64,000 nucleotides of DNA from Escherichia coli 042 (GTDB lineage: Bacteria > Pseudomonadota > Gammaproteobacteria > Enterobacterales > Enterobacteriaceae). Location: the NCBI RefSeq assembly GCF_000027125.1, contig NC_017626.1, one strand, 5' to 3'. The notes under the pieces are model-generated. The model ran no database searches. It was not told the origin of the DNA and saw nothing but the letters and a program-made list of their open reading frames with translations. Numbering within the stretch: the stretch's first letter is position 1; every line of letters begins with the position of its first letter. Below are positions 3,695 through 57,871 of this stretch, in pieces. Made by a program: the position numbers and the translations under genes.

Positions 3695-4032
3695 TCAGGA
3701 CATAAGCAACTGAAATTGATGGCTGGCATGACGAGGGATGCAGATGCTGATTTCATTACCCCCGGTGATTACTAAAGGAGAGGCGAAAACGACTTTATTC
3801 CCCTGGTATGTGTATCCACCAGTAGAACCCTTCGTTGCCCGAATGCTGGCAGGAACTGTTGGCAGAACGGCAACATTTTTTTTGTCGTTGACCTCACCAT
3901 GTCGATCACTATGCCTGTATCCCACCTTACTGGCTGACAACCCCACTATGCCGCTGGTCTGTAAATCCCTCATATCTCTCCTCGCGCGCAATTTAAAGAA
4001 CCGTTATTTCTCAAGAATTTTCAGGGACTAAA

Positions 4033-9419: not shown

Positions 9420-9665
9420 GACTATCCCTTATATTTCATTACTGCGATTATTTCAATTTCAGTATACTAATGAAATGATGCCAGACTGTTTCTTAGCGCA
9501 AAAACTGCCAGATTTGGTAGGACCAAAATTTATCCACAAAGTAGTTTTGCATAACAGTTAATTGATAATAAGTAAATGCAACACGAATATATTTTCGCAC
9601 AGCGTATAGCTTATGTTTATAAAAAAATGGCTGATCTTATTTCCAGTAAAAGTTATATTTAACTT

Positions 9666-9771
9666 ACTGAGAGCACAAAGTTTCCCGTGCCAACAGGGAG
9701 TGTTATAACGGTTTATTAGTCTGGAGACGGCAGACTATCCTCTTCCCGGTCCCCTATGCCGGGTTTTTTTT
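9666..9771 (+). ncRNA. gadY: Small regulatory RNA GadY, cis-antisense to the gadX 3' UTR
   Basis: Sequence actgagagcacaaagtttcccgtgccaacagggagtgttataacgg...cccggtcccctatgccgggtttttttt matches the GadY sequence as I recall it and ends in a GC hairpin plus T8 terminator on the plus strand, in the gadX-gadW intergenic region. Confidence 0.75.
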
Positions 9772-9787
9772 ATGTCTGAGTAAAACT

Positions 9788-46973: not shown

Positions 46974-47059
46974 GAACGAAAAAGGCCGCAGAGTTTCACC
47001 CCTGCGGCCTGATCCGGGCGCAAATTGCCATTACGGCAGCCTGACGCCCGCATGACACG

Positions 47060-47167
47060 TTACTTCCGCTTATTCAGCGAGTTCACGATCAGACTGGCAA
47101 GAATGCCAGCAATGACCGGAGCCGCTAAATCATGCCAGAAGGCCATGCCCAGTTCTGCGAGCGTCAT
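47060..47167 (-). CDS. ldr: Ldr-family type I toxin peptide (35 aa), copy 1
   Basis: MTLAELGMAFWHDLAAPVIAGILASLIVNSLNKRK; ATG at 47165-47167. The ORF-track 80-aa ORF is an upstream in-frame extension. Confidence 0.85.
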   Translation of the reverse strand: MTLAELGMAFWHDLAAPVIAGILASLIVNSLNKRK

Positions 47168-47215
47168 ATAGCCGCCTCTGTTGTAATGACAACGTTTCGC
47201 GGCTATTCTTGAGTT

Positions 47216-47283
47216 GTTTGGGTTCAAGATTAGCCCCCGTGATGTTGTCAGGTGCATACCTGCAACGTGCGGGGGTTTTCTCT
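47216..47283 (+). ncRNA. rdl: Rdl-family antisense RNA, copy 1
   Basis: Plus-strand element ending in the hairpin gcccccg...cgggggttttctct within the ldr leader; coordinates inferred from my recollection of RdlD. Confidence 0.55.
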
Positions 47284-47542
47284 CTCCAGCAACCAATGCC
47301 ACCAGGGATTAAGCCCCCGCAACATTGCGCCTCACCGGAACCCTTCCGGCTTGCCGCTGATTCTACGGCCATTTTTGTTCGTCGAAATCCATCACTTCTT
47401 CACTCTGTGCTGCGCATTCCGCAGAATATTATCCGCTTGCAGCCGTTGCATTTTTCTTACGAAAAAGGCCGCAGAGTTTCACCTCTGCGGCCTGGTCCGG
47501 GCGCAAATTGCCATTACGGCAGCCTGACGCCCGTCTGACACG

Positions 47543-47650
47543 TTACTTCCGCTTATTCAGCCAGTTCACGATCATGCTGGCAAGAATGCCAGCAATGACC
47601 GGAGCCGCTAAATCATGCCAGAAGGCCATGCCCAGCTCTGCGAGCGTCAT
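47543..47650 (-). CDS. ldr: Ldr-family type I toxin peptide (35 aa), copy 2
   Basis: Same frame and length as copy 1; C-terminus ...ASMIVNWLNKRK; not reported separately in the ORF track. Confidence 0.8.
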   Translation of the reverse strand: MTLAELGMAFWHDLAAPVIAGILASMIVNWLNKRK

Positions 47651-47698
47651 ATAGCCGCCAGTGTTGTAATGACAACGTTTCGCGGCTATTCTTGAGTT

Positions 47699-47766
47699 GT
47701 GTAGGTTCAAGAATGGCCCCCGTCATATTGTCAGGTGAATACCTGCAACGTGCGGGGGTTTTCTCT
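47699..47766 (+). ncRNA. rdl: Rdl-family antisense RNA, copy 2
   Basis: Repeat-unit copy of the rdl element with terminator hairpin. Confidence 0.5.
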
Positions 47767-48025
47767 CTCCAGCAACCAATGCCACCAGGGATTAAGCCCC
47801 CGCAACATTGCGCCTCACCGGAACCCTTCCGGCTTGCCGCTGATTCTACGACTGTTTTTCTGTTCCGAAATCCATCACTTCTTCACTCTGTGCTGCGCAT
47901 TCCGCAGAATATTATCCGCTTGCAGCCGTTGCATTTTTCTTACGAAAAAGGCCGCAGAGTTTTATCCCTGCGGCCTGATCCGGGCGCAAATTGCCATTAC
48001 GGCAGCCTGACGCCCGTCTGACACG

Positions 48026-48133
48026 TTACTTCTGCTTGTTCAGCCAGTTCACGATCATGCTGGCAAGAATGCCAGCAATGACCGGAGCCGCTAAATCGTG
48101 CCAGAAGGCCATGCCCAGCTCTGCGAGCGTCAT
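48026..48133 (-). CDS. ldr: Ldr-family type I toxin peptide (35 aa), copy 3
   Basis: MTLAELGMAFWHDLAAPVIAGILASMIVNWLNKQK. Confidence 0.85.
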   Translation of the reverse strand: MTLAELGMAFWHDLAAPVIAGILASMIVNWLNKQK

Positions 48134-48181
48134 ATAGCCGCCTCTGTTGTAATGACAACGTTTCGCGGCTATTCTTGAGTT

Positions 48182-48249
48182 GTGTAGGTTCAAGAATGGC
48201 CCCCGTGATGTTGTCAGGTGCATACCTGCAACGTGCGGGGGTTTTCTCT
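48182..48249 (+). ncRNA. rdl: Rdl-family antisense RNA, copy 3
   Basis: Repeat-unit copy of the rdl element with terminator hairpin. Confidence 0.5.
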
Positions 48250-48508
48250 CTCCAGCAACCAATGCCACCAGGGATTAAGCCCCCGCAACATTGCGCCTCA
48301 CCGGAACCCTTCCGGCTTGCCGCTGATTCTACGACTGTTTTTCTGTTCCGAAATCCATCACTTCTTCACTCTGTGCTGCGCATTCCGCAGAATATTATCC
48401 GCTTGCAGCCGTTGCATTTTTCTTACGAAAAAGGCCGCAGAGTTTCACCTCTGCGGCCTGGTCCGGGCGCAAATTGCCATTACGGCAGCCTGACGCCCGT
48501 CTGACACG

Positions 48509-48616
48509 TTACTTCCGCTTGTTCAGCCAGTTCACGATCATGCTGGCAAGAATGCCAGCAATGACCGGAGCCGCTAAATCATGCCAGAAGGCCATGCCCA
48601 GTTCTGCGAGCGTCAT
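48509..48616 (-). CDS. ldr: Ldr-family type I toxin peptide (35 aa), copy 4
   Basis: MTLAELGMAFWHDLAAPVIAGILASMIVNWLNKRK. Confidence 0.85.
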   Translation of the reverse strand: MTLAELGMAFWHDLAAPVIAGILASMIVNWLNKRK

Positions 48617-48664
48617 ATAGCCGCCTGAGTTGTAATGACAACGTTTCGCGGCTATTCTTGAATG

Positions 48665-48732
48665 GTCTAGATGCAAGAATGGCCCCCGTGGTGTTGTCAG
48701 GTGCATACCTGCAACGTGCGGGGGTTTTCTCT
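48665..48732 (+). ncRNA. rdl: Rdl-family antisense RNA, copy 4 (RdlD-like)
   Basis: gtctagatgcaagaatggcccccgtggtgttgtcaggtgcatacctgcaacgtgcgggggttttctct, the copy closest to the RdlD sequence as I recall it. Confidence 0.6.
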
Positions 48733-48991
48733 CTCCAGCAACCAATGCCACCAGGGATTAAGCCCCCGCAACATTGCGCCTCACCGGAACCCTTCCGGCT
48801 TGCCGCTGATTCTACGGCCATTTTTGTTCGTCGAAATCCATCACTTCTTCACTCTGTGCTGCGCATTCCGCAGAATATTATCCGCTTGCAGCCGTTGCAT
48901 TTTTCTTACGAAAAAGGCCGCAGAGTTTTATCCCTGCGGCCTGATCCGGGCGCAAATTGCCATTACGGCAGCCTGACGCCCGTCTGACACG

Positions 48992-49099
48992 TTACTTCTG
49001 CTTGTTCAGCCAGTTCACGATCATGCTGGCAAGAATGCCAGCAATGACCGGAGCCGCTAAATCGTGCCAGAAGGCCATGCCCAGCTCTGCGAGCGTCAT
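48992..49099 (-). CDS. ldr: Ldr-family type I toxin peptide (35 aa), copy 5
   Basis: MTLAELGMAFWHDLAAPVIAGILASMIVNWLNKQK. Confidence 0.85.
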   Translation of the reverse strand: MTLAELGMAFWHDLAAPVIAGILASMIVNWLNKQK

Positions 49100-49147
49100 A
49101 TAGCCGCCTCTGTTGTAATGACAACGTTTCGCGGCTATTCTTGAGTT

Positions 49148-49215
49148 GTGTAGGTTCAAGAATGGCCCCCGTGATGTTGTCAGGTGCATACCTGCAACGT
49201 GCGGGGGTTTTCTCT
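49148..49215 (+). ncRNA. rdl: Rdl-family antisense RNA, copy 5
   Basis: Repeat-unit copy of the rdl element with terminator hairpin. Confidence 0.5.
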
Positions 49216-49574
49216 CTCCAGCAACCAATGCCACCAGGGATAAAGCCCCCGCAACATTGCGCCTCACCGGAACCTTTCCGGCTTGCCGCTGATTCTACGA
49301 TTGCTTTTTACCGTCAGCACCCGGCAATCTTCCTCATTGCGCGATGCCTTCCAGCTTAATTTCTTTATTTGCAATAGTTGCAGTTCATATCCGGGCTGAC
49401 TCCAGACTGGTAGTGAAATGCGCAATTTTGTAGAATTGCGCCTCCTCGCGACCTCCCCAGTGAATCTGTTGCCTCATTTTTTACATACTGCGTATTCGAC
49501 TTCTCCACCTGTTGCGCAAGAGAAACTGGGTTTATTCATTTTTGCGAGGCCGACTTCTTTCTGGACAGGACTTT

Positions 49575-54900: not shown

Positions 54901-55072
<172 letters not shown>

Positions 55073-56750: not shown

Positions 56751-57295
56751 CCCTTTGCAGTGGGTTGTCGCTGCCTGACCTTTTTTGTTTTTTGCCCGGT
56801 CGGGTCAACGTTATGAGGTGGGGATGCCGTACTAATTAACATCAGTGTAACAGTGCGGATCCTCCATAAAATGCCCCTCGTGACCTACAATCTGTCAACA
56901 GAATGTGAAAACGTCAATACAGCCAACCGGGATTTACACCAACGGTGAGAATCCACAAACAAAGATTAAAAAAACTTCAAACAGCTATTTGCAGCAGAGA
57001 AATTTGTGCTACTCCAACATGACCAGAACAATCAGCTTAATATTTAGCAACAATTGGTGATTAAGTTTTATGCATTTTGTGAAAAAAATCTGAGGAAAAG
57101 GTGGATATCTGAGCGATTAATACCATGAACGCTAAAACGCACAGCGGAAAATGCCAGCGCCAGCCATAAGTAACGCAAAAAAAAATTTAAGCAAATATAA
57201 AAAAAGACAATGGTTTCTGTCACAAATCCGTTAATGGATAGTGAGATATGGGCGCAAATTTGGCAGGAAAATGTGTGGTGTGTAGGTCGAATAAG

Positions 57296-57794
57296 GCGGT
57301 CGCGCCGCATCCGACAATGGGCCGGCACATTTGCCTGATGCGACGCTGGCGCGTCTTATCAGGCCTACGTCGAATCGAACCTCCCTGCCCCCGGAAGTTC
57401 TCATCCTCTTCAGGCCGCAGAAAGCAAAAAACCAGCCCGTAGGCTGGTTTTTCTAAATTGGTCGGTGATAGAGGATTACTCGCCACTTCGTGGCTCGCCC
57501 TGCGGGCCGTTGCTGGCGCAACGTTCTCTCGCTTCGCTCGAGTCGAATCTCCCTGCCCCCGGAGGTTCTCATCCTCATAGGCTACAAATGCAAAAAAGCC
57601 TGCTCGCTGAGCAGGCTTTTCGAATTTGGTCGGTGCCAGAGGATTACTCGCCACTTCGTGGCTCGCCCTGCGGGCCGTTGCTGGCGCAACGTTCTCTCGC
57701 TTCGCTCGAGTCGAACCTCCCTGCCCCCGGAGGTTCTCATCCTCATGGGCTACAAATGCAAAAAAGCCTGCTCGCTGAGCAGGCTTTTCGAATT
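57296..57794. repeat. Three tandem imperfect direct repeats (about 150-185 bp), each ending with a terminator hairpin plus a roughly 20-nt copy of the proK 3' end
   Basis: Units at about 57296-57479, 57480-57648 and 57649-57794. Each contains tcgaa(t/c)ctccctgcccccgga(a/g)gttctcatcctc, a hairpin (aaaaaaccagcccgtaggctggttttt or aaaaaagcctgctcgctgagcaggctttt) and aatttggtcggtg(at/cc)agaggatt, which matches the proK 3' terminus. Confidence 0.7.
57762..57790 (-). terminator. Rho-independent terminator of proK
   Basis: On the minus strand aaaagcctgctcagcgagcaggcttttttg, 5 nt after the tRNA 3' end. Confidence 0.65.

Positions 57795-57871
<77 letters not shown>

What the first reader, a model, noticed from the sequence alone, without database searches (positions are those of the whole stretch)
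47060..49215. The five Ldr/Rdl copies are not identical: peptide and antisense-RNA variants coexist
Ldr C-termini differ between copies: ...ASLIVNSLNKRK (copy 1), ...ASMIVNWLNKRK (copies 2 and 4) and ...ASMIVNWLNKQK (copies 3 and 5). The 5' part of the rdl element also varies: gtttgggttcaagattagcccccgtgatg (copy 1), gtgtaggttcaagaatggcccccgtgatg (copies 2, 3 and 5) and gtctagatgcaagaatggcccccgtggtg (copy 4). Because Rdl acts by base pairing, this could make the antitoxins copy-specific, or it could simply reflect drift between copies.
Basis: seen in the sequence. Interest (0 to 1): 0.4.

Follow-up and report, generated by a model that had tools for sequence, protein, structure and literature searches.

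The report
Five variant Ldr/Rdl toxin–antitoxin repeats
This is an ordinary E. coli array of five tandem Ldr toxin / Rdl antisense-RNA modules; the copies differ mostly where the antisense RNA first touches its target, so they probably form three partly private antitoxin classes rather than five, which is predicted but untested.

Summary
Window 46976-49390 holds five tandem 483-bp LDR-D units between bcsG and yhjV. Each has a 35-aa ldr ORF (Pfam PF13940) and a full-length rdlD match (Rfam RF01813).

The three peptide variants are exactly as reported. The Rdl description is partly wrong. Copy 2 differs from copies 3/5 at Rdl nt 26, 29 and 40, so there are four Rdl alleles.

Variation is non-random: 10 of 30 variable sites lie in Rdl nt 1-40 (Fisher p=4e-4). 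In 76 units from 23 E. coli genomes this segment is the diversity peak (pi 0.108 vs 0.012-0.046), with 25 Rdl alleles.

The hot spot is the predicted 11-nt apical loop of a conserved ldr-leader hairpin, which faces Rdl's unpaired 5' tail. Predicted seed energies give three classes (1 | 2,3,5 | 4), not five. Cognate pairs score -12.5 to -17 kcal/mol and most non-cognate pairs -10 to +6.

Other unconstrained loops are about as variable, so drift is not excluded. Because Rdl is cis-encoded, drift itself creates specificity.

Copy 3 is a chimera of copies 2 and 5. Copy 1 lacks the family's signature Trp.

This is a known system. The specificity idea is plausible and testable but unproven.

The parts
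46976..47458 (-). LDR-D unit 1 (adjacent to the bcsG stop codon)
   Evidence: 483-bp direct repeat family; alignment A1; 100% identical to unit 1 of NZ_AP022298
47060..47167 (-). ldr-1, 35 aa, MTLAELGMAFWHDLAAPVIAGILASLIVNSLNKRK (M26L, W30S)
   Evidence: ORF read; Pfam PF13940 E=1.1e-23. The W30S variant occurs in 9 of 76 units, always at array position 1
47216..47281 (+). rdl-1, allele R1, tail class A (GUUUGGGUUCA...)
   Evidence: Rfam RF01813, 90.4 bits, model positions 1-66 of 66; fold gives unpaired nt 1-11 plus a long terminator hairpin
47199..47237 (-). ldr-1 leader hairpin; apical loop 47213-47223 (ACCCAAACAAC) faces the Rdl 5' tail
   Evidence: MFE fold and unpaired probability about 0.7; stem invariant in 76 units, 8 loop alleles
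47459..47941 (-). LDR-D unit 2
   Evidence: 100% identical to unit 2 of NZ_AP022298
47543..47650 (-). ldr-2, 35 aa, ...ASMIVNWLNKRK (commonest peptide, P1); Shine-Dalgarno weakened from GAGG to CUGG
47699..47764 (+). rdl-2, allele R13: same tail as copies 3/5 but G26C, G29A, C40A
   Evidence: Rfam 78.3 bits, with one broken pair flagged; MFE -28.8 vs -32.3 kcal/mol; allele seen only in the window and NZ_AP022298
47682..47720 (-). ldr-2 leader hairpin; loop 47696-47706 (ACCUACACAAC)
47942..48424 (-). LDR-D unit 3, a chimera: unit columns 1-203 equal unit 2 and columns 150-483 equal unit 5
   Evidence: position-by-position comparison; absent from the otherwise identical 4-unit array of NZ_AP022298
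48026..48133 (-). ldr-3, 35 aa, ...ASMIVNWLNKQK (R34Q)
48182..48247 (+). rdl-3, allele R4, tail class B (GUGUAGGUUCA...)
   Evidence: Rfam 83.8 bits
48165..48203 (-). ldr-3 leader hairpin; loop 48179-48189
48425..48907 (-). LDR-D unit 4
   Evidence: 100% identical to unit 3 of NZ_AP022298
48509..48616 (-). ldr-4, 35 aa, ...ASMIVNWLNKRK
48665..48730 (+). rdl-4, allele R2, tail class C (GUCUAGAUGCA...), the most 'private' tail
   Evidence: Rfam 81.8 bits; seed energies on non-cognate targets -0.8 to +6.1 kcal/mol
48648..48686 (-). ldr-4 leader hairpin; loop 48662-48672 (AUCUAGACCAU)
48908..49299 (-). LDR-D unit 5 (yhjV side); repeat homology ends at unit column 92, and upstream of that it matches the K-12 single-copy flank
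48992..49099 (-). ldr-5, 35 aa, ...ASMIVNWLNKQK (R34Q)
49148..49213 (+). rdl-5, allele R4, identical to rdl-3
   Evidence: Rfam 83.8 bits
49131..49169 (-). ldr-5 leader hairpin; loop 49145-49155

Best explanation
The region is the LDR-D locus of an E. coli chromosome, expanded to five tandem type I toxin-antitoxin modules.

Each module makes a roughly 375-nt ldr mRNA on the minus strand. This mRNA encodes a 35-aa membrane toxin. From the opposite strand of its 5' leader each module also makes a 66-nt Rdl RNA.

The differences between copies are standing polymorphism of this repeat family. They are not five designed specificities. They concentrate at the few positions the heavily structured mRNA tolerates. 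The main such position is the apical loop of a conserved leader hairpin, which is complementary to Rdl's unpaired 5' tail.

Because Rdl is cis-encoded, each change keeps the cognate pair perfect and weakens non-cognate seed pairing. The predicted result is three seed classes: copy 1 | copies 2, 3, 5 | copy 4. These have asymmetric, partial cross-reactivity. Rdl-1 is the most promiscuous through G-U pairs, and Rdl-4 is the most private.

The array is reshuffled by unequal crossing-over or gene conversion. Copy 3 is a recent chimera of copies 2 and 5.

Shown: the anatomy, family membership, the distribution of variation, and the chimera. Inferred: the tail-to-loop first contact, by analogy with hok/sok; the hairpin and closed-mRNA folds; and any functional discrimination.
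For: Family membership and locus: Rfam RF01813 matches five times at full length. Pfam PF13940 matches all three peptides. The bcsG-LDR-yhjV context is the same as K-12 ldrD/rdlD.

Variation in the window: 10 of 40 variable columns fall in Rdl nt 1-40, against 20 of 337 elsewhere in the transcript (odds ratio 5.3, p=3.7e-4).

Variation in the population: across 76 units from 23 genomes there are 25 Rdl alleles but one peptide accounts for 44 of 76 units. Pi is 0.108 in Rdl nt 1-40 against 0.012-0.046 in other segments and 0.050 at third codon positions. The sliding-window peak is 0.13 at unit columns 217-256.

Structure: Rdl nt 1-11 are unpaired by RNAfold and nt 1-16 by the Rfam consensus. 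The ldr leader hairpin at columns 222-260 has a stem invariant in 76 units and an 11-nt loop with 8 alleles.

The same hot spots differ among K-12 LDR-A/B/C.

Seed energies: for tail nt 1-11, cognate pairs are -17.6 to -18.1 kcal/mol and pairs between different seed classes are -2.8 to -11.6. Corrected for accessibility, cognate pairs are -12.5 to -17.0 and pairs between classes are -10.0 to +6.1. Rdl-3/5 and copy 2 are fully cross-reactive.

Precedent: Sib RNAs discriminate paralogous ibs mRNAs through recognition domains that lie in their variable regions (PMC2943612). An Rdl/ldr duplex forms in vivo in K-12 (PMC7373196).

Array dynamics: units 1, 2, 4 and 5 are 100% identical to the 4-unit array of NZ_AP022298, and unit 3 is a 2/5 chimera. 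Copy number at this locus ranges from 1 to 5 in the genomes listed from the 5,426 complete genomes searched.
Against: No experiment on Rdl cross-reactivity was found, and a 2021 review calls RdlD's mechanism 'currently unknown' (PMC8309996). The tail-to-loop contact is therefore an analogy, not a fact.

All non-cognate pairs keep 59-63 of 66 complementary bases and predicted duplexes of -108 to -130 kcal/mol.

The target loop (pi 0.253) is not clearly more variable than the ldr terminator loop (0.197) or a small 5' hairpin loop (0.204).

Loop positions just outside Rdl (columns 244, 246, 247) vary as much as those inside it.

The hairpin and the long-range folds rest on energy minimisation. 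Almost all pairs are invariant, so covariation neither supports nor contradicts them.

The sample is 23 genomes chosen from a BLAST ranking. It is not a phylogenetically controlled set.
Confidence: 0.6

Rival explanations
1. Functionally silent drift. All five Rdl RNAs act as one pooled antitoxin on all five ldr mRNAs, and the differences have no regulatory consequence.
For: Only 3-7 mismatches in 66 nt separate any pair, and full duplexes are still -108 to -130 kcal/mol. Other unconstrained loops are about as polymorphic as the target loop. Identical-tail pairs within arrays number 10 of 108, against 13.1 +/- 3.3 expected at random (P=0.21). Loop positions not covered by Rdl vary just as much.
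Against: In the one comparable family that has been tested, Sib/Ibs, paralogs of very high identity do not cross-repress. Discrimination there maps to the variable regions (PMC2943612). In this window, 2-4 of the first 11 tail nucleotides differ between classes, and the predicted seed loses 6-15 kcal/mol.
Confidence: 0.3
2. Selected orthogonality. The recognition loop and tail are under diversifying selection, so each unit is a private addiction module that cannot be deleted without toxin release. Arrays therefore accumulate distinct classes.
For: The diversity peak at the tail/loop is 2-9 times that of the other segments of the unit and about twice that of third codon positions. There are 11 tail classes in 76 units. 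Within-array divergence equals between-array divergence (0.109 vs 0.108), so the arrays show no concerted homogenisation. The only recent gain or loss seen, unit 3 compared with NZ_AP022298, involves a unit whose Rdl allele is duplicated by unit 5.
Against: There is no excess of distinct tails within arrays (P=0.21). Redundant tails occur in the window (B three times) and in L007 (A three times). Neutral loops reach similar diversity. There is only a single case (n=1) for the deletion argument.
Confidence: 0.15
3. Some copies are decaying. Copy 1 has lost the signature Trp. Copy 2 has a weakened Shine-Dalgarno, a lost upstream in-frame AUG and a destabilised Rdl hairpin. These two copies are on the way to becoming pseudogenes.
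For: W30S removes the conserved Trp of the Fst/Ldr superfamily (PMC2887945). In copy 2, GAGG becomes CUGG, ATG202 becomes ATT, and an in-frame TGA appears. The Rdl-2 hairpin is 3.5 kcal/mol weaker, with one broken pair.
Against: All five ORFs are intact. All still match Pfam with E<=1e-23. The -10-like and -35-like hexamers read by eye for rdl and the terminators are unchanged. The W30S allele is shared by 9 units in several lineages and always sits at the same array position, so it is old and maintained. The prototype Fst has Val at this position and is toxic (PMC7472228).
Confidence: 0.15

Closest known systems
ldrD/rdlD (LDR-D) of E. coli K-12, Ldr/Rdl type I toxin-antitoxin family (Kawano et al. 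2002, as cited in PMC4147584)
   Same: Same chromosomal site between bcsG and yhjV. Same 35-aa toxin family (PF13940) and same 66-nt antisense RNA family (RF01813). The Rdl start lies at the same unit column and the terminators match.
   Different: Five tandem units instead of one. None of the five is identical to the K-12 unit (15-20 differences over unit columns 92-483). K-12's tail class (G) is absent from the window.
Ibs/Sib paralogous cis-antisense family of E. coli (Han et al. 2010, PMC2943612)
   Same: Multiple near-identical toxin/antisense copies in one genome. The variable blocks coincide with the proposed target-recognition elements, which gives cognate-only repression in Sib/Ibs.
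   Different: Sib covers the whole ibs ORF and translation initiation region and has two mapped recognition domains. Rdl covers only the 5' leader. Its recognition element is inferred here and has not been mapped, and cross-repression has not been tested.
hok/sok of plasmid R1 and its chromosomal homologues
   Same: Long structured toxin mRNA. The antisense RNA lies opposite the 5' leader rather than the toxin ribosome-binding site. A predicted single-stranded antisense 5' tail faces a target loop. A predicted 5'-3' fold-back occludes the Shine-Dalgarno. Reviews state that the organisation is similar (PMC4147584, PMC3874152, PMC8594479).
   Different: Unrelated sequences and toxin family. The proposed leader ORF (ldrX) could not be located unambiguously. 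The only starts inside the Rdl overlap are in frame with ldr, and the ATG is lost in copy 2 and in 7 of 76 units.
K-12 LDR-A/B/C tandem array (ldrABC/rdlABC)
   Same: A tandem array of Ldr/Rdl units whose copies differ at the same three Rdl hot spots: the tail, the internal loop at nt 26-27, and the apical loop.
   Different: Different locus (kdsA-chaA), a 535-bp period, and the LdrB-group peptide.

Membership tests
Ldr/Rdl type I toxin-antitoxin (LDR-D group) | 35-aa hydrophobic peptide matching the Ldr_toxin profile | tested here: met
   PF13940 matches positions 1-35 of 35 for all three variants, 83-93 bits against a cut-off of 27. NCBIfam has no model that hits.
Ldr/Rdl type I toxin-antitoxin (LDR-D group) | Cis-encoded antisense RNA of about 66 nt, opposite the 5' leader and not overlapping the ldr ribosome-binding site or start codon | tested here: met
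   Five RF01813 matches, 78-90 bits against a gathering score of 50, model positions 1-66 of 66. The Rdl 5' end lies 48 nt upstream of each ldr ATG.
Ldr/Rdl type I toxin-antitoxin (LDR-D group) | Lies in a long direct repeat at the bcsG-yhjV intergenic site | tested here: met
   RefSeq annotates 1-5 Ldr genes at this site in other E. coli genomes.
Ldr/Rdl type I toxin-antitoxin (LDR-D group) | Fst/Ldr superfamily signature: a conserved Trp after the transmembrane helix, followed by a charged C-terminus | tested here: met
   Met in copies 2-5 (W30, then NKRK or NKQK). Not met in copy 1, which has S30. Signature as described in PMC7472228 and PMC2887945.
Ldr/Rdl type I toxin-antitoxin (LDR-D group) | The peptide is toxic and the toxicity is relieved by the cognate Rdl | not testable with these tools
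   Known only for K-12 LdrD/RdlD (PMC4147584).
Paralog-discriminating cis-antisense antitoxins (Sib/Ibs type) | The recognition element coincides with the most variable block among paralogs | tested here: met
   The diversity peak lies at Rdl nt 1-37, which corresponds to the ldr hairpin loop. The element's role in recognition is itself inferred.
Paralog-discriminating cis-antisense antitoxins (Sib/Ibs type) | A non-cognate antitoxin fails to bind or repress under native conditions | not testable with these tools
   Only predicted seed energies are available.
hok/sok-like regulation | A leader ORF whose start is covered by the antisense RNA and which is translationally coupled to the toxin ORF | tested here: inconclusive
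   The only starts inside the overlap are ATG at column 202 and TTG at column 232, both in frame with ldr. The ATG is lost in copy 2, and an in-frame stop appears. ldrX is mentioned in PMC4147584 and PMC8167048 without coordinates.
hok/sok-like regulation | A 5'-3' fold-back that closes the full-length mRNA and hides the Shine-Dalgarno | tested here: inconclusive
   Predicted in all copies, with Shine-Dalgarno unpaired probability 0.00-0.06. Kept in the 30-sequence consensus that includes LDR-A/B/C, but the pairs are almost all invariant.
hok/sok-like regulation | The single-stranded 5' tail of the antisense RNA contacts a target loop | tested here: inconclusive
   Both elements are predicted to be unpaired. 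No probing or kinetic data exist.

The most novel reading that the evidence does not exclude
The Rdl 5' tail and the ldr leader-hairpin loop form a hypervariable specificity determinant, analogous to plasmid incompatibility loops. E. coli carries a pool of at least 11 partly orthogonal Ldr/Rdl classes. Orthogonality would then govern which units an array can gain or lose by unequal crossing-over. A unit could be lost only if another Rdl covers its toxin mRNA.
Probability: 0.2. Interest if true: 0.55.

Novelty: already known. Interest (0 to 1): 0.3.

Why it matters
Why chromosomes keep many near-identical type I toxin-antitoxin copies is an open question. How Rdl represses ldr is also still described as unknown.

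This analysis gives a concrete, cheap target for experiment. It points to an 8-11-nt tail/loop contact with natural allelic series: three classes in this strain and eleven in 76 units. It also provides a predicted cross-reactivity matrix that includes asymmetric cases.

If the classes are real, multi-copy Ldr arrays are sets of independent switches rather than gene dosage. If they are not real, the copies are redundant and the variation is neutral.

Either way the locus itself is an ordinary, annotated feature of E. coli.

Tried and rejected
- The sigma-70 consensus scan found no promoter at its threshold. The rdl promoter read by eye (TTGTAA, 17 nt, TATTCT) scores only 8 of 12. The ldr -10 (TAGAAT at unit columns 94-99) has no good -35. 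Transcript starts are therefore taken from the K-12 annotation and Rfam, not shown here.
- NCBIfam gave no hit for the peptides.
- I could not obtain Kawano 2002, Kawano 2012 or Gerdes & Wagner 2007. The coordinates of ldrX and of the mapped ldrD 5' end are therefore not verified.
- I looked for a mok-like out-of-frame leader ORF. None is conserved. A 37-aa frame-0 ORF that overlaps the ldr start exists only in copy 2's allele.
- A permutation test for an excess of distinct tails within arrays was not significant (P=0.21).
- I tested whether the target loop is uniquely variable. It is not: the terminator loop and one 5' loop are similar.
- Covariation support for the leader hairpin and the 5'-3' closure is uninformative, because the pairs are invariant.
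- Kissing between the 4-nt apical loops of Rdl and its mirror hairpin was considered as the first contact. I judged it less likely than tail-to-loop contact because the loops are only 4 nt.
- A YUNR U-turn motif is present in some loop alleles (CUAG, CUGA) but absent in others, including copies 1, 2, 3 and 5. It is therefore not used as evidence.
Full report
WHAT IS THERE

The window carries the E. coli bcs-yhjV-dpp region. A 4.9-kb flank is 100% identical to strain BEC1-S17-ESBL-09.

Between the bcsG stop (46973) and yhjV (start about 49575) lie five head-to-tail repeats with a 483-bp period.

Each repeat has a 35-codon ORF on the minus strand, and all three peptide variants match Pfam Ldr_toxin end to end. 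On the plus strand, 48 nt upstream of that ORF's ATG, each repeat has a full-length match to Rfam rdlD. Each ldr and each rdl ends in a terminator-like hairpin.

This is the LDR-D site of K-12, which has a single unit there. RefSeq annotates 1 to 5 Ldr genes at this site in other complete E. coli genomes. The system and its copy-number variation are therefore known.

CHECKING THE OBSERVATION

I aligned the five units in ldr-sense orientation. 'Unit columns' below count from the 5' end of each 483-bp unit in that orientation.

| Feature | Unit columns |
|---|---|
| Rdl (antisense) | 178-243 |
| ldr ATG | 292 |
| ldr stop | 397-399 |

In residue terms they are M26L+W30S (copy 1), the common form (copies 2 and 4), and R34Q (copies 3 and 5).

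The quoted rdl strings are right for copies 1, 3, 4 and 5 but wrong for copy 2. Copy 2 differs from copies 3/5 at Rdl nt 26, 29 and 40. There are thus four Rdl alleles.

WHERE THE VARIATION FALLS

Thirty columns vary within the transcribed part (columns 107-483). Ten of them lie in the 40 nt that encode Rdl nt 1-40, against 20 of 337 elsewhere (odds ratio 5.3, p=3.7e-4).

To see whether this is general, I extracted 76 LDR-D units from 23 genomes with 1-5 copies. They contain 25 Rdl alleles but are dominated by one peptide (44 of 76).

| Segment | Nucleotide diversity (pi) |
|---|---|
| Rdl nt 1-40 | 0.108 |
| Other segments | 0.012-0.046 |
| Third codon positions | 0.050 |
| Sliding-window peak (columns 217-256) | 0.13 |

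K-12's LDR-A/B/C units differ from each other at the same three Rdl hot spots. The Rfam consensus is also degenerate there.

STRUCTURAL CONTEXT

Rdl is predicted to have an unpaired 5' tail, followed by one long terminator hairpin. The tail is nt 1-11 by RNAfold and nt 1-16 in Rfam's consensus.

The ldr mRNA is predicted to form a hairpin at columns 222-260. Its stem is invariant in all 76 units. Its 11-nt apical loop (columns 236-246) carries 8 alleles, and Rdl nt 1-8 are complementary to it.

Two linked stem positions (227/229) toggle a single internal mismatch between two places. They occur as UA or CU, 38 units each, and never as UU or CA.

The variable positions in the window fall as follows:
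- Rdl tail nt 3, 5, 7 and 9 (the target loop).
- nt 15 and 17 (the toggle).
- nt 26, 27 and 29 (Rdl internal loop/stem).
- nt 40 (Rdl apical loop).

The full-length mRNA is also predicted to be closed by pairing of the leader and the Shine-Dalgarno/AUG with the 3' UTR. This arrangement resembles hok mRNA and agrees with reviews that call ldr/rdl hok/sok-like (PMC4147584, PMC3874152). Nearly all of these pairs are invariant, so covariation gives no independent support.

PREDICTED CONSEQUENCES

By tail sequence the five copies form three classes: copy 1 | copies 2, 3, 5 | copy 4.

| Measure | Cognate pairs | Pairs between different classes |
|---|---|---|
| Tail nt 1-11 duplex (kcal/mol) | -17.6 to -18.1 | -2.8 to -11.6 |
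| Full 66-nt duplex (kcal/mol) | -139 to -144 | -108 to -127 |

Within the 2/3/5 class, the tail duplex of non-cognate pairs equals the cognate value, and their full duplexes are -124 to -131 kcal/mol.

I then added opening energies for both RNAs:
- Cognate seeds are -12.5 to -17.0 kcal/mol.
- Rdl-1 on the other targets gives -6.4 to -10.0. G-U pairs make it relatively promiscuous.
- Rdl-3/5 gives -3.4 on ldr-1 and -2.9 on ldr-4.
- Rdl-4 gives -0.8 to +6.1 on the others.
- Rdl-3/5 and copy 2 are fully cross-reactive.

Across the 11 tail classes in the population, cognate seeds average -25.0 kcal/mol and non-cognate seeds -14.5 kcal/mol for nt 1-16. A few near-equivalent pairs exist.

Any discrimination would be kinetic, at the first contact. 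That is how closely related Sib RNAs discriminate ibs mRNAs through variable recognition domains (PMC2943612). I found no experiment on Rdl cross-reactivity. The mechanism of RdlD is still described as unknown (PMC8309996). An Rdl/ldr duplex does form in vivo in K-12 (PMC7373196).

DRIFT OR SELECTION?

The data do not separate them.

- Predicted unpaired positions are generally more variable than paired ones (pi 0.076 vs 0.018).
- The target loop (0.253) is matched by the ldr terminator loop (0.197) and a small 5' hairpin loop (0.204).
- Loop positions just outside Rdl vary as much as those inside it.
- Arrays are not enriched for distinct tails: 10 identical pairs of 108, against 13.1 +/- 3.3 expected, P=0.21.
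- On the other hand, units within an array are as divergent as units from different genomes (0.109 vs 0.108). There is therefore no concerted homogenisation.

The key logical point is that Rdl is encoded opposite its own target. Neutral change there automatically preserves the cognate pair and degrades non-cognate pairs. 'Drift' and 'specificity' are therefore not alternatives.

ARRAY HISTORY AND THE ODD COPIES

Units 1, 2, 4 and 5 are 100% identical to the four units of NZ_AP022298.

Unit 3 is identical to unit 2 over columns 1-203 and to unit 5 over columns 150-483. It is thus a recombinant with a junction in columns 150-203. This explains why copies 3 and 5 share Rdl and peptide.

The W30S peptide occurs in 9 of 76 units and always in the unit next to bcsG. 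It is therefore an old positional allele, not a fresh lesion. It removes the Trp that defines the Fst/Ldr superfamily, although Fst itself has Val at that position (PMC7472228).

Copy 2's allele is rare (2 of 76). It has the following features:
- It weakens the Shine-Dalgarno.
- It destroys the only ATG inside the Rdl overlap and adds an in-frame stop.
- It creates a 37-aa out-of-frame ORF across the ldr start.
- It weakens the Rdl hairpin by 3.5 kcal/mol.

VERDICT

This is a known system at its known locus.

The copy-specific idea is plausible and now sharpened. It becomes three classes, a defined tail/loop determinant, and an explicit predicted matrix. It remains unproven, and selection for it is not shown.

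Noticed in passing
window 57459-57592 and 57627-57762 (-), next to 57795-57871 (-): Two RtT-family repeats (Rfam RF00391, 97-100 bits) lie immediately downstream of a tRNA-Pro(CGG) gene. RtT is best known from the tyrT operon (own knowledge, not checked here).
   Followed up: no
each unit, e.g. window 47944-48318 (-); unit columns 128-133/437-442, 266-276/425-435, 283-300/409-425: The predicted ldr mRNA is closed by long-range pairing of its 5' leader and Shine-Dalgarno/AUG with the 3' UTR, as in hok fold-back inhibition. The pairing is kept in a 30-sequence consensus that includes K-12 LDR-A/B/C, but the pairs are almost all invariant, so it is unproven.
   Followed up: partly
window 47613-47726 (-), copy 2: Copy 2's allele changes ATG202 to ATT and adds an in-frame TGA. 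It also creates a new ATG that opens a 37-aa ORF in another frame, which runs across the ldr start codon in a mok-like layout. The allele is found only in this window and in NZ_AP022298.
   Followed up: partly
window 47942-48424 (unit 3): Unit 3 is a chimera of unit 2 (5' part) and unit 5 (3' part), with the junction in unit columns 150-203. The closest genome has the same array without this unit. This points to a recent unequal crossing-over or gene-conversion event.
   Followed up: yes
unit columns 227/229 and 235-247 in all units, e.g. window 47212-47232: Stem positions 227/229 toggle one internal mismatch between two places (UA or CU, 38 units each, never UU or CA). In 'CAU' loop alleles the closing pair is lost while two new pairs can form inside the loop. 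This hints that hairpin stability is maintained while the loop changes.
   Followed up: partly
loci L013 vs L014, and L016/L017 vs L018: Arrays built from the same tail classes carry them in a different order (F C J vs F J C; I D E vs D I E). This suggests that the tail block, or whole units, are exchanged between positions.
   Followed up: no
locus L013 (NZ_CP147608) 1-574: In strain GN06489, bcsG is truncated and abuts bcsA, so part of the cellulose operon is deleted right next to the LDR array.
   Followed up: no
window 9663-9776, 3812-3883, 55009-55051, 57285-57365: Other Rfam small-RNA matches in the window are GadY, ES205, ES036 and naRNA4. This fits an ordinary E. coli chromosomal segment.
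   Followed up: no
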